Source: a virus (lineage: Duplodnaviria; Heunggongvirae; Uroviricota; Caudoviricetes). Taken from it: DNA of 64,000 nt. A program made the position numbers and the translations under genes. The notes below the pieces were generated by a model. That model was given only the letters and a program-made list of their open reading frames with translations. It was not told where the DNA came from and did not search any database. Location: IMG/VR virus record IMGVR_UViG_3300037312_000757. One strand, 5' to 3'. Positions within the stretch are counted from its first letter, which is position 1. Each line of letters opens with the position of its first letter. Positions 20,627 to 31,849 of the stretch are shown in pieces.

Positions 20627-21613
20627 TCATGGTCGCATACGAACACGATAGTCTTTTACAATCACGCCATGTTCTGATGTGCTGCGCATATGCGAGTGCC
20701 ACCAGAATATGCCTGACTTGCGTCGCTTGAAATGTCCAATAACAGAATGCAGCCTCGGCGGGCTTTTGAGCCACTGTTGAATAGCTGCTGCGCGCCTACC
20801 TCTACCGGACGGTATATCACGAATGCCGCCGAGAAATATATCAAGAACCTTGTACTCGAAAAAGGGCACTCTGCCGGCTTTACGGCGCTTTTTATTCAGT
20901 TTCTCGGAAGGCCGGACTGAAACCTCTTTTACGTTGCGGGCATTGAGCGCTAGTAACGCTGCTATCGTGACCGTTACTTCTTCATGACAGTCACGAGCCA
21001 AGGTATTAATATCAATACCTTGTTCCCTGTGGTCTCTAATAGAGTCAGGTAACAATGGTATAAAAGCTGTTTTGAACGATGAGCGTTCCCGCCCCTCAAG
21101 TATTACTGGTGTAATCTCGTTGTTACGTGGTACCCAAATCCCAATAGGTGAAGGCACCCAAATATCAACGTGATCATAATATGATATTGGTTGAAGCAGA
21201 ACGCCGTCAGTTGAATCGTCACCTGTTATCTGTTTTACTATCGGCTCAAGTACGTCAAGCGCTTCGCCGTCAGTAACAACAATCAATCGCTTGGACGAAG
21301 GTGATATTGTAGACGTACTGCTTCGCGTCCCATAAAATTCATCTGCGTTCGCTATAACCTTTTCGTCTATGGTGTTCACGGTTTCATACTCAAACACCAT
21401 GACTGGGTACGGGCACTTGGTGAGCTTGAACAGCTCAGCATCAATATGACTTACACCGACGCGTCCGTGCATGGGTAACAGAAACTTGACCCCGTAACGA
21501 AGTTGGTCGATGAGCAATTCGACCCCGAACGCATCACGCCGCGAATCAGGTTTCTTCGCGTAGGCTTTCTGCAGACGTTCCAACAACTCAATGGCTTCTG
21601 AAACGAAGTTCAT
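20627..21613 (-). CDS. hypothetical protein, R-x-H-x-V-x-G-H family (paralog of 33627-34643)
   Basis: C-terminal RLHSVIGHF..WW..H.R...G.I...Y.V. Confidence 0.75.
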   Translation of the reverse strand: MNFVSEAIELLERLQKAYAKKPDSRRDAFGVELLIDQLRYGVKFLLPMHGRVGVSHIDAELFKLTKCPYPVMVFEYETVNTIDEKVIANADEFYGTRSSTSTISPSSKRLIVVTDGEALDVLEPIVKQITGDDSTDGVLLQPISYYDHVDIWVPSPIGIWVPRNNEITPVILEGRERSSFKTAFIPLLPDSIRDHREQGIDINTLARDCHEEVTVTIAALLALNARNVKEVSVRPSEKLNKKRRKAGRVPFFEYKVLDIFLGGIRDIPSGRGRRAAAIQQWLKSPPRLHSVIGHFKRRKSGIFWWHSHMRSTSEHGVIVKDYRVRMRP

Positions 21614-21674
21614 TTGAAGCGCTCATATAATTGTCGTCAGTGTATGGTACAATCATATGAATACTACCGCAAGC

Positions 21675-21899
21675 TTAAACGCTTTCGGTCACAATCAAAG
21701 TGCGGGGAGGAAAACGAAGCGGTTGCTTGGAATCGTCGCAGTAGACTTTGCCGTTCTCGACGCGAGTAACGGTAATGATCTTGATGAGATGCAGGTCAGC
21801 ATGTCCGCCGCTGTATCCCTTCGCCAGCTTCGCGCCGACTTTGATCTCACGACCCAGCATGTCGATTGCATCCTTGCAATCTGCGCTAATGACGTTCAT
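21675..21899 (-). CDS. hypothetical protein
   Basis: AGGAG RBS, promoter. Confidence 0.65.
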   Translation of the reverse strand: MNVISADCKDAIDMLGREIKVGAKLAKGYSGGHADLHLIKIITVTRVENGKVYCDDSKQPLRFPPRTLIVTESV

Positions 21900-21982
21900 T
21901 TGCTTCTCCTGTTTGTTGTTCACCATGTATCACATGATACATTCATATGGTAAAAATACAAGAGACCCAATGAAGTAAAAGA

Positions 21983-22058
21983 TGGTCTGGGTGGTGGGGA
22001 TCGAACCCACGGCCTCCGCGTTCCGAACACGGCCGTCTACCGCTGACATTACACCCAG
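21983..22058 (-). tRNA. tRNA-Pro(CGG)
   Basis: Loop TTCGGAA. Confidence 0.9.
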
Positions 22059-22066
22059 ATAGAAGT

Positions 22067-22144
22067 TGGTAGGATAGGTCGGACTCGAACCGACAATCGA
22101 CTTATTTTGAGTAAGCCAGGTATTCCAATTCCCTTCACTATCCC
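22067..22144 (-). tRNA. tRNA-Leu(CAA), short variable loop
   Basis: Loop CTCAAAA, A73, 5-nt variable region. Confidence 0.85.
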
Positions 22145-22149
22145 ATTGT

Positions 22150-22225
22150 TGGTCACCCCTGACAGACTTGAACTGTCGCTCCATGATCCCAAATCACGTG
22201 TGCTTGCCGCTAACACTAAGGGGAG
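22150..22225 (-). tRNA. tRNA-Pro(TGG)
   Basis: Loop TTTGGGA. Confidence 0.85.
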
Positions 22226-22262
22226 ATATGACGATGAGCCTAAAGGCTCATGTAAAGAAAGA

Positions 22263-22350
22263 TGGTGCCCAAGAGGGGACTCGAACCCCTACGCCCTAAA
22301 CGGGCCACGGACTCTCAATCCGTGATGTCTACCAATTCCAACACCTGGGC
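22263..22350 (-). tRNA. tRNA-Leu(GAG)
   Basis: Loop TTGAGAG, long variable arm. Confidence 0.9.
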
Positions 22351-22401
22351 AAAACAAAAGAGCCACAGGACATGGCTCTCTTTTAAAACTTGTACTGCTA
22401 C

Positions 22402-22656
22402 TTACTGCGGAACACGCTGCACATGGAACGTGCGCAACACTTTGTTGGGACCGCACGCCATGACAACTTTAAAAATTGCTTGCTGCTTAGTACGCGTATT
22501 GCGGAAGTAGCCAAAACCACATTCAACAATAGTACCGGTGACAGTAACGCGATTTGCACGACTAGATTCAGACAGCTTGATGGTGAACTGCTGTCCAACA
22601 GCTTGGGCACCAATCCGGTTCGCCTTCTCCATCAGTGCTTGATCCGCTGCGTTCAT
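22402..22656 (-). CDS. hypothetical protein
   Basis: GGAG RBS, palindromic promoter. Confidence 0.65.
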   Translation of the reverse strand: MNAADQALMEKANRIGAQAVGQQFTIKLSESSRANRVTVTGTIVECGFGYFRNTRTKQQAIFKVVMACGPNKVLRTFHVQRVPQ

Positions 22657-22675
22657 CGTCTGCTCCGTTTGTTTA

Positions 22676-22714
22676 CCATGTTCAAATGATACATTCACTT
22701 GAACATGGTTGCAA
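22676..22714 (-). promoter_or_regulatory. sigma70-like promoter with long palindrome
   Basis: TTGCAA-N17-TATCAT; CCATGTTCAA..TTGAACATGG. Confidence 0.8.
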
Positions 22715-22720
22715 GAGCTC

Positions 22721-23230
22721 TTAACTATCCAGCACTTTGTTCAACGCAGCAACACGTTCATGCAGGAAGTCGCGTTCGATAACTCGGCTGTCGTATGACA
22801 GTGGGCGTTTGCCCGCTTTGATTGCTTCGATGCGAGCTTGTGCCCTGCGAATCTCTGCTTCCAGCTTTGCTATCTCGTCTGCATCCTCTTTGTCGCACTT
22901 TGCGAATGCTTCGTCGAACTTCTTCTGCAGATACTTGCGGATACCTGCTTCATTGGTTGTCAAGTTTCCGTAGAAACGAGTTCCGTTGCTAATGTCACCC
23001 CACTTACGTCCATCGCGTTGACCGTACAGTTTGCGCTGTTGTTCGTAGTCAAGGCTGAGACGTTTGCTAACGTCAAGCCCAGGGGCAGTGGTGAAGCAAT
23101 AGTCGTCGGCGCTCGTGACAACTTCTTTCTTGAAGAATTGCAGAGTCTGCTTGTAGTGATAGATGTTGTCCCACAGGTCGATGGATTCGAAATTGATCAC
23201 CACATCGCCTACGTTGAACTTGCGCGTCAT
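22721..23230 (-). CDS. hypothetical protein
   Basis: AGGAG RBS. Confidence 0.7.
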   Translation of the reverse strand: MTRKFNVGDVVINFESIDLWDNIYHYKQTLQFFKKEVVTSADDYCFTTAPGLDVSKRLSLDYEQQRKLYGQRDGRKWGDISNGTRFYGNLTTNEAGIRKYLQKKFDEAFAKCDKEDADEIAKLEAEIRRAQARIEAIKAGKRPLSYDSRVIERDFLHERVAALNKVLDS

Positions 23231-23294
23231 GTTGTTCTCCTTGTTTACCATACTCACATGATAAGTTCATATGAACTTGGTAGCAAGGTTTATT

Positions 23295-23380
23295 TGGTAC
23301 CCTGGGAGGGATTTGAACCCTCACGCCTAAAAGGCCACGCGTTCTGAGCACGTGATGTCTACCGGTTCCAACACCAGGGC
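23295..23380 (-). tRNA. tRNA-Leu(CAG)
   Basis: Loop CTCAGAA, long variable arm. Confidence 0.9.
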
Positions 23381-23387
23381 ATTAAAA

Positions 23388-23510
23388 CTATTTTGCGAAT
23401 CGCCAGCCTACACACCACAGGTCAAGTCGCACAAACCATGTTCCGTTGTGTTTGCCGAAACCAAATCGGAGCATACGGTTGTCTTTGTCAAGAGATATTT
23501 TTGTTATCAT
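23388..23510 (-). CDS. small hypothetical protein (40 aa)
   Basis: MITKISLDKDNRMLRFGFGKHNGTWFVRLDLWCVGWRFAK fills inter-tRNA gap. Confidence 0.5.
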   Translation of the reverse strand: MITKISLDKDNRMLRFGFGKHNGTWFVRLDLWCVGWRFAK

Positions 23511-23518
23511 TTTGTTAA

Positions 23519-23596
23519 TGGTGGGTAAGGTGGGATTCGAACCCACAGGCGACTGCTTCTGAGGCAATCAGGTATTCCAATTCCCTTCACTTACCC
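23519..23596 (-). tRNA. tRNA-Leu(CAG), short variable loop
   Basis: Loop CTCAGAA, A73. Confidence 0.85.
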
Positions 23597-23601
23597 GCTA
23601 A

Positions 23602-23678
23602 TGGTGGACCCCAAGGGAATCAAACCCTTCACAGACGCATTGCAAGTGCATCTCGCCACTCTTGGTACATGGGAGCCC
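23602..23678 (-). tRNA. tRNA-Ala(TGC)
   Basis: Loop CTTGCAA, G3:U70. Confidence 0.85.
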
Positions 23679-23686
23679 ATAAAACT

Positions 23687-23763
23687 TGGTCGGGATTGCA
23701 GGACTCGAACCTGCAGCCTCCGGTTTCCAGAACCGGCCGTCTACCAATTGACATTAAACCCCG
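23687..23763 (-). tRNA. tRNA-Pro(TGG), C33
   Basis: Loop TCTGGAA. Confidence 0.85.
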
Positions 23764-23772
23764 AATAAAACT

Positions 23773-23900
23773 TGGTGAGTTTGGGTGGATTCGAACCATC
23801 CTGAGCGCTTTCGTATCGCCTCTTACCATGACATTTCCCCGTGCCTGGACACACCATAAAGATGCAAGCGGGAGTCGAACCTGCTTATGCCTCAAACTCA
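23773..23900 (-). ncRNA. tRNA-like RNA with two T-loop hairpins
   Basis: Acceptor GAGTTTG/CAAACTC-A-CCA; TTCGACT and TTCGAAT hairpins. Confidence 0.75.
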
Positions 23901-23906
23901 TATCAG

Positions 23907-23984
23907 TGGTCGGTGTGGTGGGATTCGAACCCACAAGCATTTGGCTCTCGACCAAATAGGTATACCAATTCCCTTCACACACCG
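23907..23984 (-). tRNA. tRNA-Leu(GAG), short variable loop, C33
   Basis: Loop TCGAGAG, A73. Confidence 0.8.
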
Positions 23985-23992
23985 ATAAAACT

Positions 23993-24092
23993 TGGTGGAT
24001 ACGACGGGGTATTCTCCCGCACATGGGCCCCGCAGGGGCAGGCGCATATTTTGCCCGAGCCGATGTAGTTTTCAGGACTCCCTAACATACCC
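23993..24092 (-). ncRNA. tRNA-like RNA with non-canonical T loop
   Basis: Acceptor GGGTATG/CGTATCC-A-CCA; GCGGG-AGAATAC-CCCGT. Confidence 0.65.
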
Positions 24093-24100
24093 ATAAAACT

Positions 24101-24174
24101 TGGTACCCCAGCAAGGAATCGAACCTTGGTATGCGCCGTGTAAGGACGCCGTTCTACCATTGAACTACAGGGGT
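24101..24174 (-). tRNA. tRNA-Val(TAC)
   Basis: Loop CTTACAC. Confidence 0.9.
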
Positions 24175-24184
24175 GTTGAAAAAG

Positions 24185-24262
24185 TGGAGCGGGTAGGGAG
24201 AGTCGAACTCCGCGATCTTCAGCTTGGAAGGCTGCTGGACGCCCCTTGTCCTGTCTACCCGC
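24185..24262 (-). tRNA. tRNA-Gly(TCC), atypical D arm
   Basis: Loop CTTCCAA, U73. Confidence 0.8.
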
Positions 24263-24271
24263 ATTGAAACT

Positions 24272-24345
24272 TGGTGGGGGCGCTAGGGATTGAACCTAGA
24301 CCTGCTGAGTCAGAGTCAGCCACGCTGCCATTACGCCACGCCCCT
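24272..24345 (-). tRNA. tRNA-Gln(CTG)
   Basis: Loop CTCTGAC, 1:72 mismatch. Confidence 0.9.
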
Positions 24346-24354
24346 ATTAAAACA

Positions 24355-24475
24355 TGGTGCCTAGAACTGGGATCGAACCAGTGTCCTCGAAACAAACCAA
24401 GAACCACCGCGAGACGCAGGTGCGTACACCTGTACGGGTTCAGGATTTCGTGCTCTACCTCTGAGTTACCTAGGC
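24355..24475 (-). ncRNA. tRNA with ~53-nt anticodon loop
   Basis: Normal acceptor, D and T arms; stem CGAAA/TTTCG encloses long insert. Confidence 0.75.
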
Positions 24476-24482
24476 AAGGTAT

Positions 24483-24559
24483 TGGTGCCGCCCCGCGGAT
24501 TCGAACCGCGCTCTCCGGATTTTCAGTCCAGCGCTTTCACCAAGATTAGCTTGAGCGGC
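24483..24559 (-). tRNA. tRNA-Phe(GAA)
   Basis: Loop CTGAAAA. Confidence 0.9.
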
Positions 24560-24621
24560 ATTAAATTCTGTTTCCGGTTACGGGTTCCGGATGCTGCCCT
24601 ATCATTACAGCCGGTTTAAAA

Positions 24622-24696
24622 TGGTAGGTCGTAAGGGAGTCGAACCCCTGTCATCGCGTTCGTAGCACGATATTCTTTCCGTTGAACTAACGACCC
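24622..24696 (-). tRNA. tRNA-Arg(ACG)
   Basis: Loop CTACGAA. Confidence 0.9.
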
Positions 24697-24702
24697 ATTA
24701 AC

Positions 24703-24775
24703 TGGACCCACGTGGTGGAGTTGAACCACCGTAATTCGGCTTCGTAGACCAAACACCAGCTCCGCTGGACGTGAG
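24703..24775 (-). tRNA. tRNA-Arg(ACG), shortened D arm
   Basis: Loop CTACGAA; CCAGC-GGA-GCTGG D region. Confidence 0.7.
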
Positions 24776-24785
24776 ATTAAAAACT

Positions 24786-24861
24786 TGGGGTGACTAGTGG
24801 GAATCGAACCCACATCTCCGGATTCACAGTCCAGAACTCTAACCATTGAGCTATAGCCACC
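24786..24861 (-). tRNA. tRNA-His(GTG)
   Basis: Loop CTGTGAA, G-1/C73. Confidence 0.92.
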
Positions 24862-24883
24862 ATCGACTAAACAACCTTGAAAC

Positions 24884-25001
24884 TGGAGTGGGCGCCGGGA
24901 TTCGAACCCGGGTCTCGTCCTTGGAATGGAAGAATGATTGCTGAACGTTTCCTTGTCAGGAAAGCTTTTCTTACGCGTGCTAACCACTACACCACGCCCA
25001 C
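24884..25001 (-). ncRNA. CCA-ending tRNA body with CAGCAA handle hairpin replacing the anticodon
   Basis: GTGGGCG/CGCCCAC-T-CCA; insert GCTTTCC-TGACAA-GGAAACGTTCAGCAA. Confidence 0.8.
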
Positions 25002-25019
25002 ATTTAAAACTAAAATCAC

Positions 25020-25094
25020 TGGGGTGAGTTGGAGAATCGAACTCCAGTCGCCTGGTTCACAGCCAAGCATTCTAACCACTGAACTAATCTCACC
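25020..25094 (-). tRNA. tRNA-His(GTG)
   Basis: Loop CTGTGAA. Confidence 0.9.
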
Positions 25095-25104
25095 ATTGAA
25101 ACCG

Positions 25105-25434
25105 TTACAGCTTGTCAGGATATTGCGCATCGATATGATCGATGTACGCAAGCGGACTCATACCTGGTTCAAGGTCATGAACCTTGCTGAACCCGTTTTC
25201 CTTCGTGACAAGTGCATCCTCAGGCTTGACTGCACCAGCATACTTTCTGAAACCAGGCTTGTTCATCAACTTGCCTGTTGCTGGGTCAATCGACCCCCAA
25301 TCCGTCCAGTCAGTTTTGCTCTGACCGTCAATCGGTTCTACGAAATACGACTTACCAGTACGTTGACTTGTTACAATGAAGCGTCCGGTTTCGTCTGTAT
25401 TTGTGAGAAACCGTTTGCGTAGGTCGGGGTCCAT
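25105..25434 (-). CDS. hypothetical protein
   Basis: AAGGA RBS. Confidence 0.7.
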   Translation of the reverse strand: MDPDLRKRFLTNTDETGRFIVTSQRTGKSYFVEPIDGQSKTDWTDWGSIDPATGKLMNKPGFRKYAGAVKPEDALVTKENGFSKVHDLEPGMSPLAYIDHIDAQYPDKL

Positions 25435-25461
25435 ATTGGAATCCTTCTTGTTAGAGTTAAT

Positions 25462-25536
25462 TGGTGCCCTCGAGGTGAATTGAACACCTGTATCCGACAT
25501 ACCAAGTCGGCGTAATTGCCACTATACGACAAGGGC
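25462..25536 (-). tRNA. tRNA-Thr(GGT)
   Basis: Loop TTGGTAT. Confidence 0.88.
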
Positions 25537-25541
25537 GTTTC

Positions 25542-25952
25542 TTATTTCCAAGGAGTTGGTGGAGGAACAACAGCATTTTCTGGGGCTGGAACTCCAACAC
25601 TACCAAAGTCTGCTGGTGAACAAATCTCCAGGTACTCCATGTCAGGCGAGTAATCATACAAATAATGCACTAGCCCGGGAACTTGATGCACAACATCGCC
25701 TGCTTCAACAAGCGTAATTGTGTCGCCATACATGAACTTGGCCCAGCCTTTGTTCATGATGACAATTTGAAAATCTAAAACATGCTGATGCCAACCAGTA
25801 CCTTCTGTAGGTGGTTTGTTGGCTTTCACCAAGTGCGCAATAACCTTACCGTCAGTTGCGTCCTTGATACCTAAATCCTTGTACAGGAAAAAATCACGCA
25901 GTCCGTCACCTTTCCATTCAGTGTCGGCTGGTTTTACATGCGAAAATTTCAT
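25542..25952 (-). CDS. cupin-domain protein
   Basis: GWHQH..FQIVIM.KGW..F and H-x-L cupin motifs. Confidence 0.8.
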   Translation of the reverse strand: MKFSHVKPADTEWKGDGLRDFFLYKDLGIKDATDGKVIAHLVKANKPPTEGTGWHQHVLDFQIVIMNKGWAKFMYGDTITLVEAGDVVHQVPGLVHYLYDYSPDMEYLEICSPADFGSVGVPAPENAVVPPPTPWK

Positions 25953-26012
25953 GAGTTCTAACCTCAAAAAGTTAAATTATCATTATAAACTTCTTGGTTA
26001 GAACTACAATAT

Positions 26013-26087
26013 TGGCGCACCCTACAGGAATCGAACCTGTATCCAACTCTTAGGAGGAGCTGATTCTATCCGTTGAACTAAGGGCGC
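26013..26087 (-). tRNA. tRNA-Arg(CCT)
   Basis: Loop CTCCTAA. Confidence 0.9.
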
Positions 26088-26093
26088 GGCAGC

Positions 26094-26444
26094 TCAAACA
26101 ATCACTTGTTCAAGTTTATTCCACACATCATCGTACAATACGTAAAGCTTGCTTCCATCTACTTCGATTGGAATCGCTTTACTACCAAGACCAGCCATCC
26201 CCGCAACCTCACCAGGTATGACCATACGCCCTGTCACTTTGATGATGGCCGGCGCACGAATGATCCTGATAACATTGTCGATCACGTTACCATCAGCATC
26301 TTTTTTACACGCTGGGTGGTAGATTCCCACTCGTACTTGAATATCTTTCTTGGTCTTCCAGACCGTACCTTTCTTCAGTAATGAACGAATACTACCGGTC
26401 ATGATAAACCTCAAAGGAAAATCATATGATACGGTAGCATTCAT
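26094..26444 (-). CDS. hypothetical protein (start uncertain)
   Basis: ORF between tRNAs. Confidence 0.6.
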   Translation of the reverse strand: MNATVSYDFPLRFIMTGSIRSLLKKGTVWKTKKDIQVRVGIYHPACKKDADGNVIDNVIRIIRAPAIIKVTGRMVIPGEVAGMAGLGSKAIPIEVDGSKLYVLYDDVWNKLEQVIV

Positions 26445-26461
26445 TTAATGTCAAACAAAAC

Positions 26462-26536
26462 TGGTACCCGAAGTTGGAATCGAACCAACGACCTACGCGA
26501 TGTCAACGCGTTGCACTACCGCTGTGCTATCCGGGT
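26462..26536 (-). tRNA. tRNA-Val(GAC)
   Basis: Loop TTGACAT. Confidence 0.9.
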
Positions 26537-26543
26537 GTTGAAA

Positions 26544-26620
26544 CTGGAGCGTCATGAGAGGATCGAACTCCCGACCTGCTGGTTCGTAGCCAACTGCTCT
26601 GTCCACTGAGCTAATGACGC
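26544..26620 (-). tRNA. tRNA-Arg(ACG)
   Basis: Loop CTACGAA. Confidence 0.9.
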
Positions 26621-26628
26621 ATAAATCT

Positions 26629-26703
26629 TGGCATCTCGTATGGGAGTCGAACCCATCTCTGCAGATTGAAAGTCTACTGACCTAACCGATAGTCGAACGA
26701 GAT
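26629..26703 (-). tRNA. tRNA-Glu(TTC)
   Basis: Loop CTTTCAA. Confidence 0.9.
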
Positions 26704-26710
26704 ATAAAAC

Positions 26711-26785
26711 TGGAGTGCCATACGGGAGTTGAACCCGTCTTCCCACCTTGAAAGGGTGGTGTCCTAACCGATAGACGAATGACAC
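26711..26785 (-). tRNA. tRNA-Glu(TTC)
   Basis: Loop CTTTCAA. Confidence 0.9.
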
Positions 26786-26794
26786 ATAAAAATC

Positions 26795-26869
26795 TGGAGC
26801 CCCATGTGAGAATCGAACTCACATTTCTGGATTACGAAACCAGTGTTCTAGCCATTAAACTAAAGGGGC
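26795..26869 (-). tRNA. tRNA-Thr(CGT)
   Basis: Loop TTCGTAA, 31:39 mismatch. Confidence 0.75.
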
Positions 26870-26874
26870 AATTA

Positions 26875-27129
26875 TTACATATCAAAAAGAATATGACTCA
26901 CAAATGCGACAAGTTGTCCTTGTTGCAAGCCAGATCCTAATTTGTGACCAAAAACTGCTGAAAGATTCTTTATGGTTCCAGTTGTACTGCCAACCTGGAC
27001 TATACCATTATTTTGTGAAGCTTGCTGCAAATCGCTAAACACTTGGTCAATGCTAACCTGTTGTGTTGCGATTAACTCAAAGTGATTTCCTTGTTGCTGC
27101 GTTACTACGTTGGATGGAACTTGATACAT
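26875..27129 (-). CDS. hypothetical protein (Q-rich)
   Basis: AGGAG RBS. Confidence 0.65.
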   Translation of the reverse strand: MYQVPSNVVTQQQGNHFELIATQQVSIDQVFSDLQQASQNNGIVQVGSTTGTIKNLSAVFGHKLGSGLQQGQLVAFVSHILFDM

Positions 27130-27170
27130 AATTATCTCCTTTTGTGGAGATAATATACCAACCACCAATG

Positions 27171-27890
27171 TCAGTCAAATTTCATTTTTCTACCAACCTG
27201 CCATCCATTTTGCAGGTATGATTCTAAATCTGTTTTGGCAATCTTCTTTGCCGCTTTCTCTACGATTGAGAATATCCAACAAGACCCAAACTGAGAATTT
27301 TTCTCACCTTGCTGGTGTTTGTTTTTCTCAAACGTTTTTGTTCTTTTCAGCTTTGCTTCTGAAGTGTGTGCTTTCCTTGAAGCTTCAATTTGCCGCGTTC
27401 CGCCTTTAACAAACAGGGTGTGAGCAATTGTTCCGTCGGCATGTAAGTCAGTTAAACGCTTTGCTGACGCATCCAGATGCTCCTGGTAACGTTTGGTGTC
27501 TGATTTGAACTTCTGCATACGTGCAGGGCCACCGACCTTACCAGCGTCACTTGCGGTCTTTCTTTTAAGCTCTGGGTTTTCATTTATATGATCAAACCCA
27601 CCTTCCCCACCCACTTTTAAGTTCATACAAAGCGGATCAGTCAGTTGCTCTTCGCAAACTAACTCAGCTTCTCGAGCTTTCAAGGATTTGCGATCAGGTA
27701 AAAACTCTAGAATCTCACAAACATGATTATCTTTACCATGTTTGTTAATCGAATACCAAAGCCTTTTACCGGATCCCACGTAACCGTCATTAAGGTCATC
27801 TGTGGAATGCATACCGATGTAATACTTACCAGTTACTATACACGTTGTTTTGTATATGTAATGGTATTTTCTTCTTGCTGCTTGACGCAT
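27171..27890 (-). CDS. GIY-YIG homing endonuclease (Seg-like)
   Basis: YIYKTTCIVTGKYYIGMH..YVGSG, E..E, MNLKVGG; GCTAAATA upstream. Confidence 0.88.
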   Translation of the reverse strand: MRQAARRKYHYIYKTTCIVTGKYYIGMHSTDDLNDGYVGSGKRLWYSINKHGKDNHVCEILEFLPDRKSLKAREAELVCEEQLTDPLCMNLKVGGEGGFDHINENPELKRKTASDAGKVGGPARMQKFKSDTKRYQEHLDASAKRLTDLHADGTIAHTLFVKGGTRQIEASRKAHTSEAKLKRTKTFEKNKHQQGEKNSQFGSCWIFSIVEKAAKKIAKTDLESYLQNGWQVGRKMKFD

Positions 27891-27942
27891 TTGCCAAATC
27901 TCCTTTCGGAGTATTTAGCGGAAATGCGTTGATTTTGTTCAG

Positions 27943-28017
27943 TGGCGTCCGATACGGGAGTCGAACCCGTCTTTCCAGGTTGAAAGCCTAGCGACCTAAC
28001 CGATAGTCGAATCGGAC
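27943..28017 (-). tRNA. tRNA-Glu(TTC)
   Basis: Loop CTTTCAA. Confidence 0.9.
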
Positions 28018-28026
28018 ATGAAATCT

Positions 28027-28102
28027 TGGTACTGTCAGTGGGACTTGAACCCAACATTTGCTGATTGAAAGTCAGCGGTCCTAACCTTTAGACGATGACA
28101 GT
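28027..28102 (-). tRNA. tRNA-Glu(TTC)
   Basis: Loop CTTTCAA. Confidence 0.88.
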
Positions 28103-28107
28103 ATTAA

Positions 28108-28229
28108 CAGGATGGTATTTTTTACGTGCTCCCATTACACCACAGCGGGACCCTACCCCACTGCCGGGACTCGAACCCGGACCTTTCTTTTTTCCAGAAG
28201 AATAAAATAAATTTGCTGAAACCATCCAA
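28108..28229 (-). ncRNA. circularly permuted tRNA mimic with CAGCAA handle
   Basis: GGATGGTTTCAGCAA, then T arm, closed acceptor CAGTGGG/CCCGCTG, D arm, then ACCATCCTG. Confidence 0.85.
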
Positions 28230-28235
28230 GGGTTC

Positions 28236-28325
28236 TGGCAGTGGGAATGGGATTCGAACCCATGGGGCTTTTTAGGACCCGACGCCTTTCCAAGACGTTG
28301 CAATAGACCGCTCTGCCATCCCACT
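28236..28325 (-). tRNA. tRNA-Ser(GGA)
   Basis: Loop TTGGAAA, long variable arm, G73. Confidence 0.9.
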
Positions 28326-28360
28326 ATAAATTCAAATCACCAAGCCACGAAGAAAGGCGA

Positions 28361-28552
28361 TTACGATTGTGCTGCGAAACCTTCTTCACGTGCGAATGCC
28401 ACGACGCCACGGACTGCTTCGAGTGCGAACTCACCATGGAGTCGCTCCACGCGTTCTGCGGGGGTGGTCTCACGTCCAAGAGTCTCAGGGCGAGCCAGTA
28501 CGAGCGTATGCAACGGCAGTGCGGAAACGCGTGCAAATGTCAGCGTCGTCAT
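28361..28552 (-). CDS. hypothetical protein
   Basis: AGGAG RBS. Confidence 0.5.
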   Translation of the reverse strand: MTTLTFARVSALPLHTLVLARPETLGRETTPAERVERLHGEFALEAVRGVVAFAREEGFAAQS

Positions 28553-28595
28553 GATTGCTCTCCTTGAGAAAATGGTTAAAAGGTACTACGTTAAT

Positions 28596-28687
28596 TGGCG
28601 GTAGCGGAAGGATTTGAACCTTCGGGGCTTTTTAGGACCCGCTAGTTTTCGAGGCTAGTGCAATAAACCGGACTCTGCCACGCTACC
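28596..28687 (-). tRNA. tRNA-Ser(CGA)
   Basis: Loop CTCGAAA. Confidence 0.9.
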
Positions 28688-28694
28688 ATAAAAC

Positions 28695-28895
28695 TTACTT
28701 GGTGTCTTTCGATTGCTCTTCGCGCTGTGCGCTAATGAAAATGCAACCTTCAGCACCACATCCACAGACGATATGTCGTTCACGTACAATCTTGTCTGCG
28801 TCTTTGATTTCACCACGGTTACGAAGTGAATTGAAAACTTCCGTTGTATGGCGTGCTGCTGCCATATCTTTCTGCGATAAGCGTCTTCCGCTCAT
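28695..28895 (-). CDS. hypothetical protein (CGCG..GC)
   Basis: ORF between Ser tRNAs. Confidence 0.55.
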   Translation of the reverse strand: MSGRRLSQKDMAAARHTTEVFNSLRNRGEIKDADKIVRERHIVCGCGAEGCIFISAQREEQSKDTK

Positions 28896-28912
28896 ATCGT
28901 TCTCGTTATTAG

Positions 28913-29002
28913 TGGAGGAAGGTAAGGGATTCGAACCCTTGGGGCTTTTTAGGACCCGACTGTTTAGCAAACAGTTACAATAGACCGCTCTGCCAACCTT
29001 CC
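28913..29002 (-). tRNA. tRNA-Ser(GCT)
   Basis: Loop TTGCTAA. Confidence 0.9.
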
Positions 29003-29012
29003 ATTTAAAACT

Positions 29013-29108
29013 TGGTAGTCCCCCAGGGATTCGAACCCTGCCGTCGCAGCCCATCTAGCCGCTCTCCCGAGGATATAAATCTCAGCCGCTCAACCAGAGC
29101 TAAGGACC
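29013..29108 (-). tRNA. tRNA-Ile(TAT)-like with long variable arm
   Basis: GGTCCTT acceptor, A73, loop TTTATAT. Confidence 0.65.
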
Positions 29109-29119
29109 ACTGCAAAAAT

Positions 29120-29197
29120 TGGAGCTCCGAGCTAGATTCGAACTAGCGGTTTTACTGCTTTGCAGGCAGTTGCCTTGGACCTCTCGGCCATCGGAGC
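29120..29197 (-). tRNA. tRNA-Cys(GCA)
   Basis: Loop CTGCAAA. Confidence 0.9.
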
Positions 29198-29206
29198 GTT
29201 GAAAAC

Positions 29207-29282
29207 TGGAGCGGGTAACGGGGTTCGAACCCGTGACGTCTTGCTTGGCAAGCAAGTACTCTACCAACTGAGCTACACCCGC
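29207..29282 (-). tRNA. tRNA-Gly(GCC)
   Basis: Loop TTGCCAA, U73. Confidence 0.92.
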
Positions 29283-29293
29283 ATGGTGTATAA

Positions 29294-29356
29294 CTGGATG
29301 CACTTTAACGAGGTCAGATTAACGGTCTGGTGTTTGAAGTTGCTGTAGGCATCCAA
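29294..29356 (-). ncRNA. minimal CAGCAA-handle RNA
   Basis: GGATGCCTACAGCAA..GTGCATCCAG. Confidence 0.8.
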
Positions 29357-29362
29357 AACTGA

Positions 29363-29414
29363 CAGGAAGCACTTAGTCATGTAAGAAATGAGTAAGATTG
29401 CTGTAGGCTTCCTA
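29363..29414 (-). ncRNA. minimal CAGCAA-handle RNA
   Basis: GGAAGCCTACAGCAA..GTGCTTCCTG (compensatory change). Confidence 0.8.
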
Positions 29415-29426
29415 AAACTTGAATTC

Positions 29427-29681
29427 TTATAACAATCAGCACTAGGTTTGCAGTTTACCGCAGTGGAGGAATTAACTCACGGTGATCAAGCCGTTACTTC
29501 ATTCCATTCTCACGACCAAACTCAGGACCAAACAAGGAGGCGCGTCGGGGGCTCCCGAAACTCGTAAGCGGCTTAACTTCAGTGTGATACACTGTCCACA
29601 CATACCTACCCTTGCCCTCTGAGCGCTTTACCACTTGCACTGCAAAAACGGCCAGTTACTTCCTAACGCTGACTGCTATAA
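29427..29681 (-). ncRNA. ~255-nt structured RNA with 20-bp closing stem
   Basis: TTATAGCAGTCAGCGTTAGG pairs with CCTAGTGCTGATTGTTATAA; promoter TTGCAT-N16-TATCAT at 29687-29714. Confidence 0.7.
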
Positions 29682-29722
29682 AAACTATGATACACTTTGT
29701 TGCCATTTATGCAACAGAAAAC

Positions 29723-29814
29723 TGGCAGAGCTGCAAGGAATCGAACCCTATTGACTACCACCCACCGATTATTAAAGTCGCTGGTTTTGGAGACCAGTAG
29801 CGGGGAACAGCTCT
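29723..29814 (-). tRNA. tRNA-Trp(CCA) lacking D arm, expanded variable region
   Basis: AGAGCTG/CAGCTCT-G-CCA; loop CTCCAAA; only 10 nt between acceptor and anticodon stem. Confidence 0.75.
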
Positions 29815-29840
29815 GTTGAAAACTTGATACTACTAAAACT

Positions 29841-29917
29841 TGGTAGGGGCGGAGAGATTCGAACTCTCGACTTCCTGATTAAGAGTCAGGCACTCTGGCC
29901 AACTGAGTTACACCCCC
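29841..29917 (-). tRNA. tRNA-Lys(CTT)
   Basis: Loop CTCTTAA. Confidence 0.9.
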
Positions 29918-29924
29918 ATTGAAA

Positions 29925-30055
29925 TACCATTTGATGTGATCCCCATCACATCACCTGTTGAACACGATTCTGAAGCTACTTGCACATATAACGCTGAGTA
30001 GGCGTCACGTGCTTTTACTTACCGTGGGTGATCAGGTTAACCATATCAAATGGTA
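29925..30055 (-). ncRNA. ~130-nt stem-closed RNA
   Basis: TACCATTTGAT terminal inverted repeat. Confidence 0.55.
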
Positions 30056-30067
30056 CTTACGGAAACT

Positions 30068-30144
30068 TGGTGGGGGCACTGGGATTCGAACCCAAGCCTG
30101 ACGGATTAAAAGTCCGCTGTGCTAACCGCTAACACCATACCCCC
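30068..30144 (-). tRNA. tRNA-Lys(TTT)
   Basis: Loop CTTTTAA. Confidence 0.9.
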
Positions 30145-30150
30145 ATTGAC

Positions 30151-30225
30151 TGGTTGGGGCAGTGGGGATCGAACCCACGACCTTGAGATTAAGAGTCTCA
30201 TGCTCTACCGCTGAGCTATACCCCA
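30151..30225 (-). tRNA. tRNA-Lys(CTT)
   Basis: Loop CTCTTAA. Confidence 0.9.
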
Positions 30226-30245
30226 GTAAACTGGACTACAGAATC

Positions 30246-30380
30246 AGTAAGCTGGTACTTTCAATCAAGTACAGTGTACAGCTTACGACTCCCATGACTA
30301 CATTTTTGTCTGGGAGTCGTCGAACTTAATCTGCTACGACTCCCAGAAGTTTCGATGATTTTCGTTTCATCACAAACTCC
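30246..30380 (-). promoter_or_regulatory. leader-peptide RNA switch (MKRKSSKLLGVVAD, 30326-30370)
   Basis: AGGAG RBS; mutually exclusive 1:2, 2:3 and 3:4 helices. Confidence 0.65.
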
Positions 30381-30571
30381 TAAAGAGAAAATTAAATTAA
30401 AGTGTCCGAAAAATGTACACAAATTTCGGACAAAACCAACAACAAAGCCTGCATTTCCATCAGAGCACTTGCAAAAGCAAATGGTGATTCACGCAACTAG
30501 ACGTGATGGACTGGTTTAGCTCAAAGGCCAACCTAGGAGTATCAGGTCCCACCTATGGTTATTGGTAAACT

Positions 30572-30648
30572 TGGTTGCGCGAAGCAGGAGTCGAACCTGA
30601 TATCACCAGCTTATGAGACTGGTATGTAAACCGTTTCACTCTCGCGCG
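30572..30648 (-). tRNA. tRNA-Met(CAT), initiator-like C1:A72
   Basis: Loop CTCATAA. Confidence 0.8.
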
Positions 30649-30656
30649 AAACTTGT

Positions 30657-30737
30657 TGGTACCCCGCAAGAGATTCGAACTCTCACCCGAAGACCGGAAC
30701 CTAAATCCGGCGCGTCTACCAATTTCGCCAACGGGGC
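30657..30737 (-). tRNA. tRNA-Leu(TAG)
   Basis: Loop TTTAGGT. Confidence 0.9.
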
Positions 30738-30772
30738 ATCAATGCAGACCTACTAACGTCTGCACGAAATAC

Positions 30773-30850
30773 TGGTTGCGGAGAGATGGATTCGAACCAT
30801 CGACCTCCAGCTTATGAGGCTGGCGAGCTACCGGGCTGCTCTATCCCGCA
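30773..30850 (-). tRNA. tRNA-Met(CAT), fMet-like D arm
   Basis: AGAGCAGCCCGGTAGCTCG; loop CTCATAA. Confidence 0.85.
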
Positions 30851-30859
30851 ATTGAATTC

Positions 30860-30935
30860 TGGTTGTCAGTACTGGACTTGAACCAGTGACCTATCGCTTA
30901 TCAAGCGAGTGCTCTACCAACTGAGCTAACCGACA
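30860..30935 (-). tRNA. tRNA-Ile(GAT)
   Basis: Loop TTGATAA. Confidence 0.9.
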
Positions 30936-30939
30936 ATTG

Positions 30940-31168
30940 TCGCATCGCACTCGCTAAGGGCAACATTAAGCATCCACGCGCTAGAACAAGTTCCTGGCGT
31001 ATTCTCCGAATGTCATCCCTTACCAGCCATCATGCGCTGCAATGCATTTGCGCATAATGGACGAGATGCTACGTCCCTAACTGTAACCAAGTCTATTACC
31101 AACAAAACGTAGCAATACTGTTGGCACACATTGGCTCTGTTACAGCCCAGCAAGTTACCCTGCTAGTT
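30940..31168 (-). ncRNA. putative ~230-nt multi-hairpin RNA
   Basis: Promoter TTGCAA-N16-TACAAT (31175-31202), no ORF, several hairpins. Confidence 0.45.
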
Positions 31169-31210
31169 TGTTGCATTGTACAGCTTTTGCCATACTTTGC
31201 AAACACAACA

Positions 31211-31284
31211 TGGTTGTTCCAGAAAGAATCGAACTTTCGTTAATGGCTTATCAAGCCACCGTTCTACCATTGAACTATGGAACA
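31211..31284 (-). tRNA. tRNA-Ile(GAT)
   Basis: Loop TTGATAA. Confidence 0.88.
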
Positions 31285-31294
31285 ATTGAATTCT

Positions 31295-31369
31295 TGGTGG
31301 TTATAGATGGAGTCGAACCATCATTACCGGCTTATGAGACCAGTGTCCTAGCCATTGAACGATATAACC
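31295..31369 (-). tRNA. tRNA(CAT), elongator Met or Ile2
   Basis: Loop CTCATAA, G1:C72. Confidence 0.8.
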
Positions 31370-31373
31370 ATAA

Positions 31374-31429
31374 CTGGATGCACTTACGTTTTCACCGAAA
31401 GAAAGTATAAGATTGCTGTAGGCATCCAA
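31374..31429 (-). ncRNA. minimal CAGCAA-handle RNA
   Basis: GGATGCCTACAGCAA..GTGCATCCAG. Confidence 0.8.
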
Positions 31430-31449
31430 AACGGGTATTCGACATCAAA

Positions 31450-31557
31450 CTACCAAAAGTAGCGATACAACCAACCACTTTCTTGTTTATCAGTCATACA
31501 TTCGATTGGCGCTAATTCCCACACATCATTTTCAGTTCTGCGTCGAAATAACTGCAT
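31450..31557 (-). CDS. small protein (35 aa)
   Basis: AGGAG RBS; MQLFRRRTENDVWELAPIECMTDKQESGWLYRYFW. Confidence 0.5.
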   Translation of the reverse strand: MQLFRRRTENDVWELAPIECMTDKQESGWLYRYFW

Positions 31558-31575
31558 ACCAATCTCTCCTAAATG

Positions 31576-31650
31576 TGGCTCCAGAACCAGGGATCGAACC
31601 TGGGACCAACGCATTAACAGTGCGCTGCTCTACCGCTGAGCTATTCTGGA
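31576..31650 (-). tRNA. tRNA-Asn(GTT)
   Basis: Loop CTGTTAA. Confidence 0.92.
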
Positions 31651-31751
31651 ATTGAAACAGGACTGCATCGCGTACTCAGGCATTCGACACATTCAAATGC
31701 TTTCCTTTCCTTACTCTGCGGAATACCGCTAGAGATGATGCAGCAAAAACT

Positions 31752-31830
31752 TGGCTCCGCACACTGGGATCGAACCAGTCTAGCCACTGATTAACAGTCA
31801 GGTCCATGCACCTTGCTCGGATTCTGCGGA
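31752..31830 (-). tRNA. tRNA-Asn(GTT), atypical D arm
   Basis: Loop CTGTTAA. Confidence 0.82.
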
Positions 31831-31849
31831 ACTGTCATACAACAAAACT

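What the first reader, a model, noticed from the sequence alone, without database searches (positions are those of the whole stretch)
24884..25001. A CCA-ending tRNA whose anticodon loop is replaced by the CAGCAA handle: the unpermuted link
Here the handle strands occur in reverse order (TTTCC-TG-ACAA-GGAAAC-GTTCAGCAA), closed by a loop inside a normal tRNA with U73-CCA. Opening that loop and sealing the acceptor end gives exactly the permuted mimics. This shows a plausible evolutionary route between tRNA and Y-like RNA, and suggests a chargeable RNA carrying a protein-binding handle.
Basis: partly seen in the sequence, partly recalled or inferred. Interest (0 to 1): 0.8.

Follow-up and report, generated by a model that had tools for sequence, protein, structure and literature searches.

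The report
Glycine tRNA carrying a Ro60-type handle
A glycine tRNA gene of a 524-kb soil phage has a 43-base arm inserted in its anticodon stem; the arm is probably the docking handle for the phage's Ro60-like protein, which makes the RNA a tRNA/Y-RNA hybrid of a widespread class that I could not find described.

Summary
The gene is real. It lies at 24884-25001 on the minus strand, scores 46 bits against Rfam tRNA, ends in U73-CCA, and sits in a 52-tRNA phage array. It holds the CAGCAA handle in reversed strand order, closed by a loop. The handle is a 43-nt insert (24930-24972) in the 5' strand of the anticodon stem, between nt 29 and 30. Removing it leaves a perfect 75-nt tRNA-Gly(UCC).

The gene is also not a unique link. 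Pattern scans found 69 distinct tRNAs built this way in IMG/VR. Cultured Cronobacter and Vibrio T4-like phages carry them too, annotated as 'tRNA-OTHER'. Their anticodons differ widely, and the split stem and the handle hairpin both covary.

Contigs with such tRNAs also encode a DUF2828/vWA protein, in all 7 near-complete genomes and in this one. Its predicted fold matches Ro60.

Best reading (about 0.55): the insert stays in the mature RNA as the docking site for this Ro60-like protein, which makes a tRNA-shaped Y-RNA analogue. Main rival (about 0.25): it is an intron of a new kind.

No RNA data could be obtained. Earlier reports of this scan noted the same class in at least six other genomes.

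The parts
24884..25001 (-). Whole gene: 118-nt tRNA-shaped RNA with encoded CCA
   Evidence: Rfam tRNA 46.1 bits, model 1-71; sequence read
24995..25001 (-). Acceptor stem, 5' strand GUGGGCG
   Evidence: Pairs 7/7 with 24888-24894
24977..24992 (-). D arm GUGU-AGUGGUUA-GCAC, a form shared by many handle-tRNAs of other phages
24973..24975 (-). Anticodon-stem nt 27-29 (CGU), lying 5' of the insert and pairing with ACG at 24916-24918
   Evidence: covariation across 69 homologues
24930..24972 (-). 43-nt insert, the closed CAGCAA handle. Its boundary can slide by 1 nt (28/29 or 29/30).
   Evidence: removing it gives tRNA-Gly(tcc)
24968..24972 (-). S2 helix, 5' strand AAGAA; pairs with UUCUU at 24930-24934
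   Evidence: Read from the sequence. The unconstrained folds and the constrained fold of this arm do not draw this helix.
24959..24963 (-). S1 hairpin strand UUUCC; corresponds to the 3' strand of open handles, and is followed by UG
24953..24958 (-). Closing loop UGACAA, which lies where the open copies have their 5' and 3' ends
24948..24952 (-). S1 hairpin strand GGAAA; corresponds to the 5' strand of open handles
   Evidence: S1 covaries in homologues
24935..24947 (-). Unpaired bulge CGUU-CAGCAA-UCA holding the conserved CAGCAA motif (24938-24943)
24930..24934 (-). S2 helix, 3' strand UUCUU
   Evidence: Read from the sequence; not drawn by the folds
24916..24929 (-). Rest of the anticodon arm: CC (nt 30-31), loop AUUCCAA with anticodon UCC at 24923-24925, and 3' strand GGACG
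24895..24911 (-). T arm CCGGG-UUCGAAU-CCCGG, preceded by the 4-nt variable loop AGAC (24912-24915)
24884..24894 (-). Acceptor 3' strand CGCCCAC, discriminator U73 (24887) and CCA (24884-24886)
29340..29354 (-). Example of an open handle 5' strand, GGAUGC-CUA-CAGCAA. Eight more have their CAGCAA at 28213-28218, 29398-29403, 31413-31418, 35910-35915, 36123-36128, 41957-41962, 42055-42060 and 42398-42403.

Best explanation
The gene makes a composite RNA: a complete tRNA-Gly(UCC)-type body with acceptor stem, CCA, D arm, T arm and a normal anticodon loop, plus a 43-nt side arm. The arm leaves the 5' strand of the anticodon stem between nt 29 and 30, which creates a three-way junction.

The arm is a circularly permuted copy of the handle that closes nine other small RNAs in this tRNA array. 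The handle is a 5-6-bp helix, then an unpaired bulge with CAGCAA, then a second helix. I propose four steps:
1. The RNA is cut out of the tRNA-array transcript like its neighbours.
2. It keeps the arm.
3. The arm docks the phage's Ro60-like DUF2828/vWA protein, as the bulged stem of a Y RNA docks Ro60.
4. The tRNA body is then the cargo. It links the protein to factors that read tRNAs, including the anticodon loop, probably for tRNA surveillance or counter-defence.

Shown: the anatomy, the covariation, the spread of the class, its co-occurrence with the protein, and the Ro60 fold. Inferred: that the protein binds the handle, that the arm is retained, and what the particle does.
For: 1. The handle is a module of mature stand-alone RNAs. 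Nine of the ten copies in this genome are not inside tRNAs, and their ends lie at the handle stem. The same holds in more than 100 open copies in related loci.
2. Co-occurrence with the protein:
- A DUF2828+DUF7788 protein is the commonest neighbour of such tRNAs, in 19 of 66 loci.
- It is found in 29 of 44 handle-tRNA contigs, including all 7 that are at least 83% complete, and in 0 of 6 chance-match control contigs.
- This genome has one, outside the window.
3. The protein's model (pLDDT 80.8) matches Ro60 structures over its full length. The best hit is 1yvr (E 3.6e-9, TM 0.63), and the hits include the Ro60 of phage phiLo.
4. The architecture matches the Ro60 site of Y RNAs, a stem, bulge and stem with a purine-rich 5'-strand motif (PMC4201824, PMC12135203).
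5. In Cronobacter phage S13, two handle-tRNAs and an open tRNA mimic lie directly after the DUF2828 gene and apart from the 25-tRNA arrays. A normal tRNA-Gly(UCC) also exists there. This genome likewise has a second Gly(UCC).
6. Several features are odd for plain decoders:
- Orthologues in Vibrio phages keep the body and handle but change the anticodon loop, sometimes to 8 nt.
- Ser and Tyr anticodons sit on bodies with short variable loops.
7. No splicing machinery is recognisable. By my own reading of the junction sequences there is no bulge-helix-bulge motif. The genome has no tRNA_int_endo and no RtcB, and 43 nt is too short for a group I intron.
8. With the insert removed, this tRNA is 74-79% identical to handle-tRNAs of other phages that bear other anticodons. 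It is at most 71% identical to any tRNA of its own genome.
Against: 1. No RNA data exist for this phage, so retention is an inference.
2. Removing the insert restores a flawless tRNA, here and in most homologues.
3. The loops obey tRNA decoding rules: U33 in 61 of 69, and G37 only when N36 is G (13 of 20 against 0 of 45). This suggests use on the ribosome.
4. From general knowledge of ribosome-tRNA contacts, an arm at nt 29/30 should not fit the ribosome.
5. The genome encodes Rnl1- and Rnl2-type RNA ligases that could seal a cut tRNA.
6. The handle lacks the GNCGAA motif of YrlA, and the protein fails Pfam TROVE.
7. Co-occurrence in very large phage genomes is weaker evidence than adjacency. 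Here the protein gene lies about 100 kb from the tRNA.
Confidence: 0.55

Rival explanations
1. The insert is an intron of a new, protein-dependent or conditional kind. An unknown nuclease cuts at the two junctions of the three-way junction. A phage Rnl1/Rnl2 ligase or a host ligase then seals the exons. The products are an ordinary tRNA-Gly(UCC) and a free 43-nt handle RNA.
For: - Deleting exactly 43 nt gives a canonical 75-nt tRNA-Gly with U33, A37, a 4-nt variable loop and U73-CCA.
- The same holds for most of 69 homologues, with compensatory changes across the insert.
- The G37/N36 rule of decoding tRNAs is obeyed.
- Rnl1- and Rnl2-type ligases are encoded.
- The only other Gly(UCC) of this genome is atypical, at 27 bits, below Rfam's gathering score.
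Against: - No bulge-helix-bulge motif is visible at the junctions, judged by my own reading of the sequence.
- The genome has no splicing-endonuclease domain and no RtcB.
- The insert is too short for self-splicing, and no ribozyme family of Rfam matched at E up to 1.
- The junction position (27/28 to 31/32) and the spacer lengths vary between homologues.
- The same module is a stable part of non-tRNA RNAs.
- Anticodon loops are hypervariable between orthologues, 8-nt loops recur, and Ser-type anticodons sit on class I bodies.
- S13 also has a normal Gly(UCC), so its handle copy is redundant.
Confidence: 0.25
2. The handle stays in, and the RNA still works as a decoding tRNA on the ribosome. 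The Ro60-like protein would act only as a chaperone or as a shield against nucleases.
For: The anticodon loop is canonical, CCA is encoded, and Gly-type features are present: U73, G1-C72, G3-C70, C35 and C36. The loop rules are kept across the family.
Against: From established knowledge of ribosome structure, the 30S subunit grips the anticodon stem around nt 28-30 and 40-41, so a 43-nt arm there should clash. This was not tested here. Redundant normal isoacceptors exist.
Confidence: 0.07
3. It is a dead tRNA gene, disrupted when a mobile handle element inserted into it, and it has no function of its own.
For: Different tRNA bodies in one phage carry nearly identical handles, which is what mobility or gene conversion would produce.
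Against: - All stems are perfect, here and in 69 homologues.
- Both the split stem and S1 covary.
- The arrangement is conserved across 49 cultured Vibrio phage records at 78-93% identity.
Confidence: 0.05
4. One reading: the anticodon loop has been replaced by the handle, and this single gene is the evolutionary intermediate between tRNAs and the permuted Y-like mimics.
For: The handle strands are in reversed order and closed by a loop. One permuted mimic in the window (near 28108) has a nearly identical D arm.
Against: An intact anticodon hairpin follows the insert. The form is a widespread, conserved class and not a one-off intermediate.
Confidence: 0.03

Closest known systems
YrlA-type Y RNAs with Ro60/Rsr (Rfam RF02553; Chen et al. 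2014, PMC4201824; phage phiLo Yrl1/2, PMC12135203)
   Same: - A small RNA combines a tRNA-like body with a stem-bulge-stem module that has a purine-rich 5'-strand motif.
- A ring-shaped protein with a Ro60 fold and a vWA domain is encoded in the same genome.
- The system is found in phages.
- The partner RNAs lie next to or among tRNA genes.
   Different: - Here the ends are at a real acceptor stem with CCA. In YrlA they are at the protein-binding stem.
- A true anticodon loop is kept.
- The motif is CAGCAA, not GNCGAA.
- The protein is DUF2828/DUF7788 and does not match Pfam TROVE.
- No RF02553 match was listed at E up to 1.
Open CAGCAA-handle RNAs of the same genome, including three permuted tRNA mimics
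   Same: They share the S1 helix, the CAGCAA bulge, the UG after the 3' strand and the S2 helix. One mimic also has nearly the same D arm.
   Different: The strand order is reversed and S1 is closed by a loop. The cargo is a full, unpermuted tRNA with an anticodon hairpin. S1 here is GGAAA/UUUCC, where most open copies have GGAUGC/GCAUCC.
Archaeal and eukaryal tRNA introns at non-canonical positions (bulge-helix-bulge type; review PMC4090602, found, title and abstract only)
   Same: A short insert lies in the anticodon stem near nt 29/30, and removing it restores a perfect tRNA.
   Different: There is no bulge-helix-bulge motif and no splicing endonuclease gene. The host is a bacteriophage. 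The insert is a conserved protein-handle module that also occurs outside tRNAs.
Class I RNAs of dictyostelid amoebae (Rfam RF01414; Kjellin et al. 2021, PMC7919456)
   Same: The open handles of this window share three features with the RF01414 consensus: a 6-bp terminal stem, the adjoining motif C-CU(U)ACAGCAA-U, and a 3' CUG. The alignment shows this.
   Different: The score is only 18.8 bits against a gathering score of 41.5. The closed copy inside the tRNA keeps only UCAGCAA and is permuted. No link between Class I RNAs and a Ro60-like protein was tested here.
Bas63 gp130, the Ro60-like protein of a Felixounavirus (preprint 10.1101/2024.10.10.617714)
   Same: A Ro60-like phage protein is encoded directly upstream of tRNA genes. 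The authors guess that some of these 'tRNAs' are Y RNAs. The related phage HY02 has open handles there.
   Different: The preprint reports a counter-defence phenotype against the ppl system, but no RNA partner, no handle motif and no handle-bearing tRNA.

Membership tests
tRNA (Rfam RF00005) | Covariance-model score above the gathering score over the full model | tested here: met
   46.1 bits against 29, model positions 1-71
tRNA (Rfam RF00005) | Contiguous anticodon arm: 5-bp stem and 7-nt loop with U33 | tested here: not met
   A 43-nt insert splits the 5' strand. The arm is canonical only after the insert is removed. ARAGORN's default mode finds nothing.
tRNA-Gly (bacterial identity set) | U73, G1-C72, C2-G71, G3-C70, C35, C36 | tested here: inconclusive
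   U73, G1-C72, G3-C70, C35 and C36 are present, but the 2-71 pair is U-A. The identity set itself is taken from general knowledge. Charging cannot be tested with these tools.
Y RNA / YrlA (RF02553) | Partner protein of the Ro60/TROVE family in the genome | tested here: inconclusive
   Pfam TROVE is absent. A DUF2828/vWA protein is present whose model matches Ro60 structures (E 3.6e-9, TM 0.63).
Y RNA / YrlA (RF02553) | Ro60-binding motif GNCGAA(N)G in the 5' strand of a bulged stem formed by the RNA's own ends | tested here: not met
   The motif is CAGCAA, and the RNA's ends are at the acceptor stem. The criterion comes from PMC4201824.
Y RNA / YrlA (RF02553) | Match to the Rfam model | tested here: not met
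   No RF02553 match at E up to 1 in 21000-36000
Y RNA / YrlA (RF02553) | tRNA-like T and D arms | tested here: met
Y RNA / YrlA (RF02553) | Physical binding to the Ro60-type protein | not testable with these tools
   Only co-occurrence was shown
Bulge-helix-bulge tRNA intron | Bulge-helix-bulge motif at the exon-intron junctions | tested here: not met
   Reading both junctions, no pair of 3-nt bulges separated by 4 bp can be drawn. This was inspection by eye, not a tool output.
Bulge-helix-bulge tRNA intron | Splicing endonuclease and RtcB-type ligase available | tested here: not met
   PF01974 and PF01139 are absent from the 524-kb genome. The host's genes are unknown.
Group I intron in a tRNA | Self-splicing core, usually more than 200 nt, placed in the anticodon loop | tested here: not met
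   The insert is 43 nt and lies in the stem. No intron family matched in Rfam.
CAGCAA-handle RNA class (this scan's working name) | 5-6-bp helix, a few nt, CAGCAA in a 5'-side bulge, a second helix, and UG after the 3' strand | tested here: met
   All elements are present in permuted order. S1 covaries in homologues.
Dictyostelid Class I RNA (RF01414) | Model score above the gathering score | tested here: not met
   The best open handle scores 18.8 bits against 41.5. The closed copy was not matched.

The most novel reading that the evidence does not exclude
The handle is a true intron that is also a Y-like RNA. An unknown nuclease, guided by the handle or by the Ro60-like protein, excises it, and the phage's Rnl1/Rnl2 ligase seals the exons. 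Each such gene would then give both a working tRNA and a free protein-bound handle RNA. This would be the first protein-dependent tRNA splicing in a bacterial virus. It might be switched on when host nucleases attack tRNAs.
Probability: 0.2. Interest if true: 0.9.

Novelty: new variant of a known kind. Interest (0 to 1): 0.62.

Why it matters
Ro60/Y-RNA particles are known in animals, bacteria and some phages. Their known bacterial partner RNAs only imitate part of a tRNA. Here a complete tRNA, with CCA end and a rule-abiding anticodon loop, carries the docking module. The same design recurs in dozens of phage lineages, including T4-like phages of Vibrio natriegens and Cronobacter that can be grown in the laboratory. 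In public records these genes are filed as 'tRNA-OTHER', as mis-typed tRNAs or as hypothetical proteins.

If the arm is retained, this is a new way to tie an RNA-surveillance protein to the translation system. That could explain why a Ro60-like phage protein counters a bacterial defence (preprint 10.1101/2024.10.10.617714). If the arm is cut out, it is a new kind of tRNA intron in bacterial viruses.

Either way, tRNA counts and codon-supply estimates for large phages need to treat these genes separately.

Tried and rejected
Expression and splicing are therefore untested.
- ARAGORN in intron mode forces an intron into the loop and calls tRNA-Trp(cca) with G.A and A.G mismatches in the stem. I rejected this in favour of the perfect Gly(UCC) parse.
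- Known RNA families: only tRNA matched the locus. No ribozyme, riboswitch, YrlA or intron model matched at E up to 1.
- A single-sequence fold of the DUF2828 protein failed (pLDDT 38). It was repeated with a 13-sequence alignment.
- Sequence searches of the protein against PDB chains gave nothing significant. The single-sequence search found only an unrelated chain at E 0.29. The profile search gave TROVE chains at E 0.5. Only the fold search was clear.
- The first D-arm pattern scan was mis-designed and returned 8 loci. The corrected pattern returned 53.
- A scan for a close orthologue of this exact tRNA in IMG/VR found none. No insert-free sister gene could therefore be compared.
- A second GTTCAGCAA at 25184-25192 lies inside a 109-aa ORF that has no Pfam match. 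I judged it a chance resemblance.
- MFE folding of the whole RNA or of the insert alone is not distinctive (z -1.3 and -0.95). The support for the structure comes from comparison, not from folding energy.
- The KVP40 genome paper (PMC180978) is not held. Literature searches found no description of handle-bearing tRNAs.

Full report
**Setting.** The window is the minus strand of a 523,836-bp IMG/VR virus record with direct terminal repeats. ARAGORN finds 52 tRNA genes on the window's minus strand, most of them between about 22 and 33 kb. The finding lies in this array, between two tRNA-His genes, with spacers of about 20 nt.

**The observation.** On the minus strand, 24884-25001 reads as a tRNA. 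Rfam's tRNA model aligns end to end (46.1 bits against a gathering score of 29) with 54 nt looped out where the distal anticodon arm (model positions 30-40) should be. ARAGORN's default mode misses it.

The ordinary tRNA parts are all present:
- acceptor stem GUGGGCG/CGCCCAC
- D arm GUGU-AGUGGUUA-GCAC
- T arm CCGGG-UUCGAAU-CCCGG
- discriminator U and an encoded CCA

It carries the two strands of the genome's handle in reversed order, joined by the loop UGACAA. The closed pattern occurs once in the window, with none in 100 shuffles.

I collected the nine open copies. Their consensus is GUUUU(A)-GGAUGC-CUA-CAGCAA-[second helix and cargo]-(U)GCAUCC-(A/U)G-UUA. That is a 6-bp helix S1, a 9-11-nt bulge on the 5' side, and then a variable helix S2. 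All nine lie in the tRNA-array region.

After the handle comes CC-AUUCCAA-GG-ACG, and before it, right after G26, comes CGU. CGU+CC pairs perfectly with GGACG. The loop has U33, anticodon UCC and A37. The handle is therefore a 43-nt insert (24930-24972) in the 5' strand of the anticodon stem, between nt 29 and 30. The boundary can slide by one base.

With the insert removed, ARAGORN calls a 75-nt tRNA-Gly(tcc) with a 4-nt variable loop and U73-CCA. ARAGORN's intron mode, which allows introns only in the loop, gives a poor Trp(cca) parse with two mismatched stem pairs. I rejected that parse.

**It is a class, not a single link.** An IMG/VR scan for the closed handle followed by a T loop gave 66 loci. 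Of these, 45 distinct sequences, counting the window, have perfect 7-bp acceptor and 5-bp T stems. In nearly all of them, removing a 41-54-nt insert from the 5' strand of the anticodon stem restores a 5-bp stem and a 7-nt loop. A second scan, anchored on a D arm and on CAGCAA only, left S1 free. It raised the set to 69 distinct sequences and showed free covariation in S1: UAUCC/GGAUA, UAUCU/AGAUA, GAACU/GGUUC, GUAUC/GAUAC, CUACU/AGUAG and others.

| Feature across the 69 sequences | Result |
|---|---|
| Pairs 27-43 to 30-40 canonical | 68-69 of 69, with four to five canonical pair types each |
| Nucleotides 5' of the insert that pair across it | 171 of 172 |
| Same number of nucleotides taken from the insert's 3' end | 91 of 172 |
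| Shuffled partners | about 102 of 172 |
| U33 | 61 of 69 |
| G37 when N36 is G | 13 of 20 |
| G37 when N36 is not G | 0 of 45 |

My parser picks the best-pairing register, so the 171 of 172 is inflated. The variety of pair types is not affected by that choice. The G37 pattern is the rule that real decoding tRNAs follow.

The anticodons are very diverse: GUC, UCU, GCU, GAU, GUU, UUU, UGU, UGG, CCA, GUA, CAU, UCC, UUA and more.

**Cultured phages.** A BLAST search of the locus against GenBank phages hit Vibrio T4-like phages and Cronobacter phage S13.

In S13 a 113-nt 'tRNA-OTHER' is a Gly(UCC) tRNA with the handle at 29/30, like the window's. A 121-nt 'tRNA-Ser' next to it is really Thr(GGU) with the handle after nt 31. 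Directly after them lies an open handle, GGAUGC-CUA-CAGCAA, with a permuted tRNA mimic. About 500 nt upstream lies a 467-aa DUF2828/DUF7788 gene. These genes stand apart from S13's 25 ordinary tRNAs, which already include a normal Gly(UCC).

Forty-nine Vibrio phage records share a cluster of handle-tRNAs, and I compared four of them:
- The bodies and handles are conserved.
- The anticodon loop of two orthologues changes between phages: AUAGGGA or AUUAGGA in one, and AUUCAUAA, AUUUCCAA or AUUCUAA in the other. Some of these loops have 8 nt.
- A third orthologue keeps CUGUUAA throughout.

**The protein.** Clustering the ORFs of the 66 loci put one ~470-aa family on top. It occurs in 19 loci, on the same strand as the tRNA. 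It is DUF2828 + DUF7788 (a vWA domain), and PHROG 850 names it 'RNA-binding protein'.

I then searched the whole contigs. It is present in 29 of 44 contigs with a handle-tRNA, in all 7 that are at least 83% complete, and in 0 of 6 control contigs that matched my pattern by chance. This genome has one copy, about 100 kb from the tRNA and outside the window.

Pfam TROVE does not match. An AlphaFold model built on 13 homologues (pLDDT 80.8) has Ro60 structures as its 13 best PDB matches, over the full length (1yvr E 3.6e-9, TM 0.63). These include the Ro60 of Thermus phage phiLo. The family is in 710 GenBank phage records, and some mycobacteriophage records already call it 'Ro-like RNA binding protein'.

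**Comparison with known systems.**
- Y RNAs bind Ro60 through a stem-bulge-stem with a purine-rich motif in the 5' strand: GNCGAA in bacterial YrlA, CGAA in phiLo Yrl RNAs (PMC4201824, PMC12135203). YrlA also has a tRNA-like body. The handle has the same architecture with another motif.
- Here the tRNA is complete and unpermuted, so the locus fails the formal YrlA criteria of motif, position of the ends and Rfam model.
- A preprint reports that the Ro60-like gp130 of phage Bas63 lies upstream of tRNA genes and counters the ppl defence. It only guesses that some of those 'tRNAs' are Y RNAs. The related phage HY02 does carry open handles there.
- The open handles also align, below threshold, to Rfam's Dictyostelium Class I RNA model. 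They share its 6-bp stem, its C-CU(U)ACAGCAA-U motif and its 3' CUG (18.8 bits against 41.5). This lead came from earlier notes of this scan.

**Retained or spliced?**

For retention:
- The handle is a working part of many stand-alone RNAs.
- It travels with a Ro60-fold protein.
- In S13 the handle-tRNAs belong to the protein's gene cluster and duplicate a normal isoacceptor.
- Anticodon loops vary between orthologues, some have 8 nt, and Ser or Tyr anticodons sit on short-arm bodies.
- No bulge-helix-bulge motif, splicing endonuclease or RtcB is present.
- The exons resemble handle-tRNAs of other phages (74-79%) more than this genome's own tRNAs (at most 71%).

For splicing:
- The restored tRNA is flawless.
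- The loop rules are those of decoders.
- Rnl1- and Rnl2-type ligases are encoded.
- From general knowledge, an arm at 29/30 should not fit the ribosome.

I put retention at about 0.55 and an intron of a new kind at about 0.25.

**Verdict.** The object is a new variant within the Ro60/Y-RNA kind: a full tRNA with a grafted handle. Earlier reports of this scan described the same class in at least six other genomes and reached the same reading.

Noticed in passing
window 24358-24475 (-): A second 118-nt tRNA (Rfam 42.4 bits) has about 52 nt in place of the anticodon loop. It has no CAGCAA handle, and I could not rebuild a loop with U33 by simple excision.
   Followed up: partly
window 24185-24262 (-): The genome's other tRNA-Gly(UCC) is atypical. 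ARAGORN draws an 8-bp acceptor stem, a 3-bp D stem and a 4-bp T stem. It scores only 27.1 bits, below Rfam's gathering score. It also ends in U73-CCA.
   Followed up: partly
window 29363-29412 (-) and the other open handles: The open handles align end to end with Rfam RF01414 (Dictyostelium Class I RNA). They share its 6-bp stem, the CCU(U)ACAGCAAU motif and the 3' CUG, but score only 18.8 bits against a gathering score of 41.5.
   Followed up: partly
window 25105-25434 (-): A 109-aa ORF between tRNAs contains GGAAAACGGGTTCAGCAAGG, which resembles the handle's 5' strand. It has no Pfam match, and the resemblance is probably chance.
   Followed up: partly
window 27174-27890 (-): A 239-aa ORF inside the tRNA array has a weak match to the SegE GIY-YIG endonuclease domain (E 0.0099). 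It may be a homing-endonuclease relic.
   Followed up: no
L069, L072, L073, L074 (Vibrio phages CZ01, phi-ST2, F86, D482): Orthologous handle-tRNAs keep the body and handle but swap the anticodon loop between phages. Loops of 8 nt of the form AU-N-CAU-AA recur here and in IMG/VR loci L003, L030, L060 and L106.
   Followed up: partly
L070 / L112 (Cronobacter phage S13, KC954775 132703-132945), L072 (phi-ST2): Public records annotate handle-tRNAs as 'tRNA-Ser', 'tRNA-OTHER', 'tRNA-Cys' or 'tRNA-Ile' of 113-122 nt, or place hypothetical proteins over them. The assigned amino acids often disagree with the anticodon in my parse.
   Followed up: partly
L071 (Escherichia phage HY02, 7700-8450): This Felixounavirus has open handles of the form AGAAGACC-NNNUA-CAGCAA ... 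GGUCUGG directly after its Ro-like gene. One of them carries a permuted tRNA mimic with the D arm GUGUAAUGGUAGCAC. I saw no closed handle-tRNA there.
   Followed up: partly
G000:C1:54078-54683 and 447080-447535 (outside the window): The phage encodes an Rnl1-type (440-aa frame) and an Rnl2-type (391-aa frame) RNA ligase. It has no RtcB and no tRNA-splicing endonuclease domain.
   Followed up: partly
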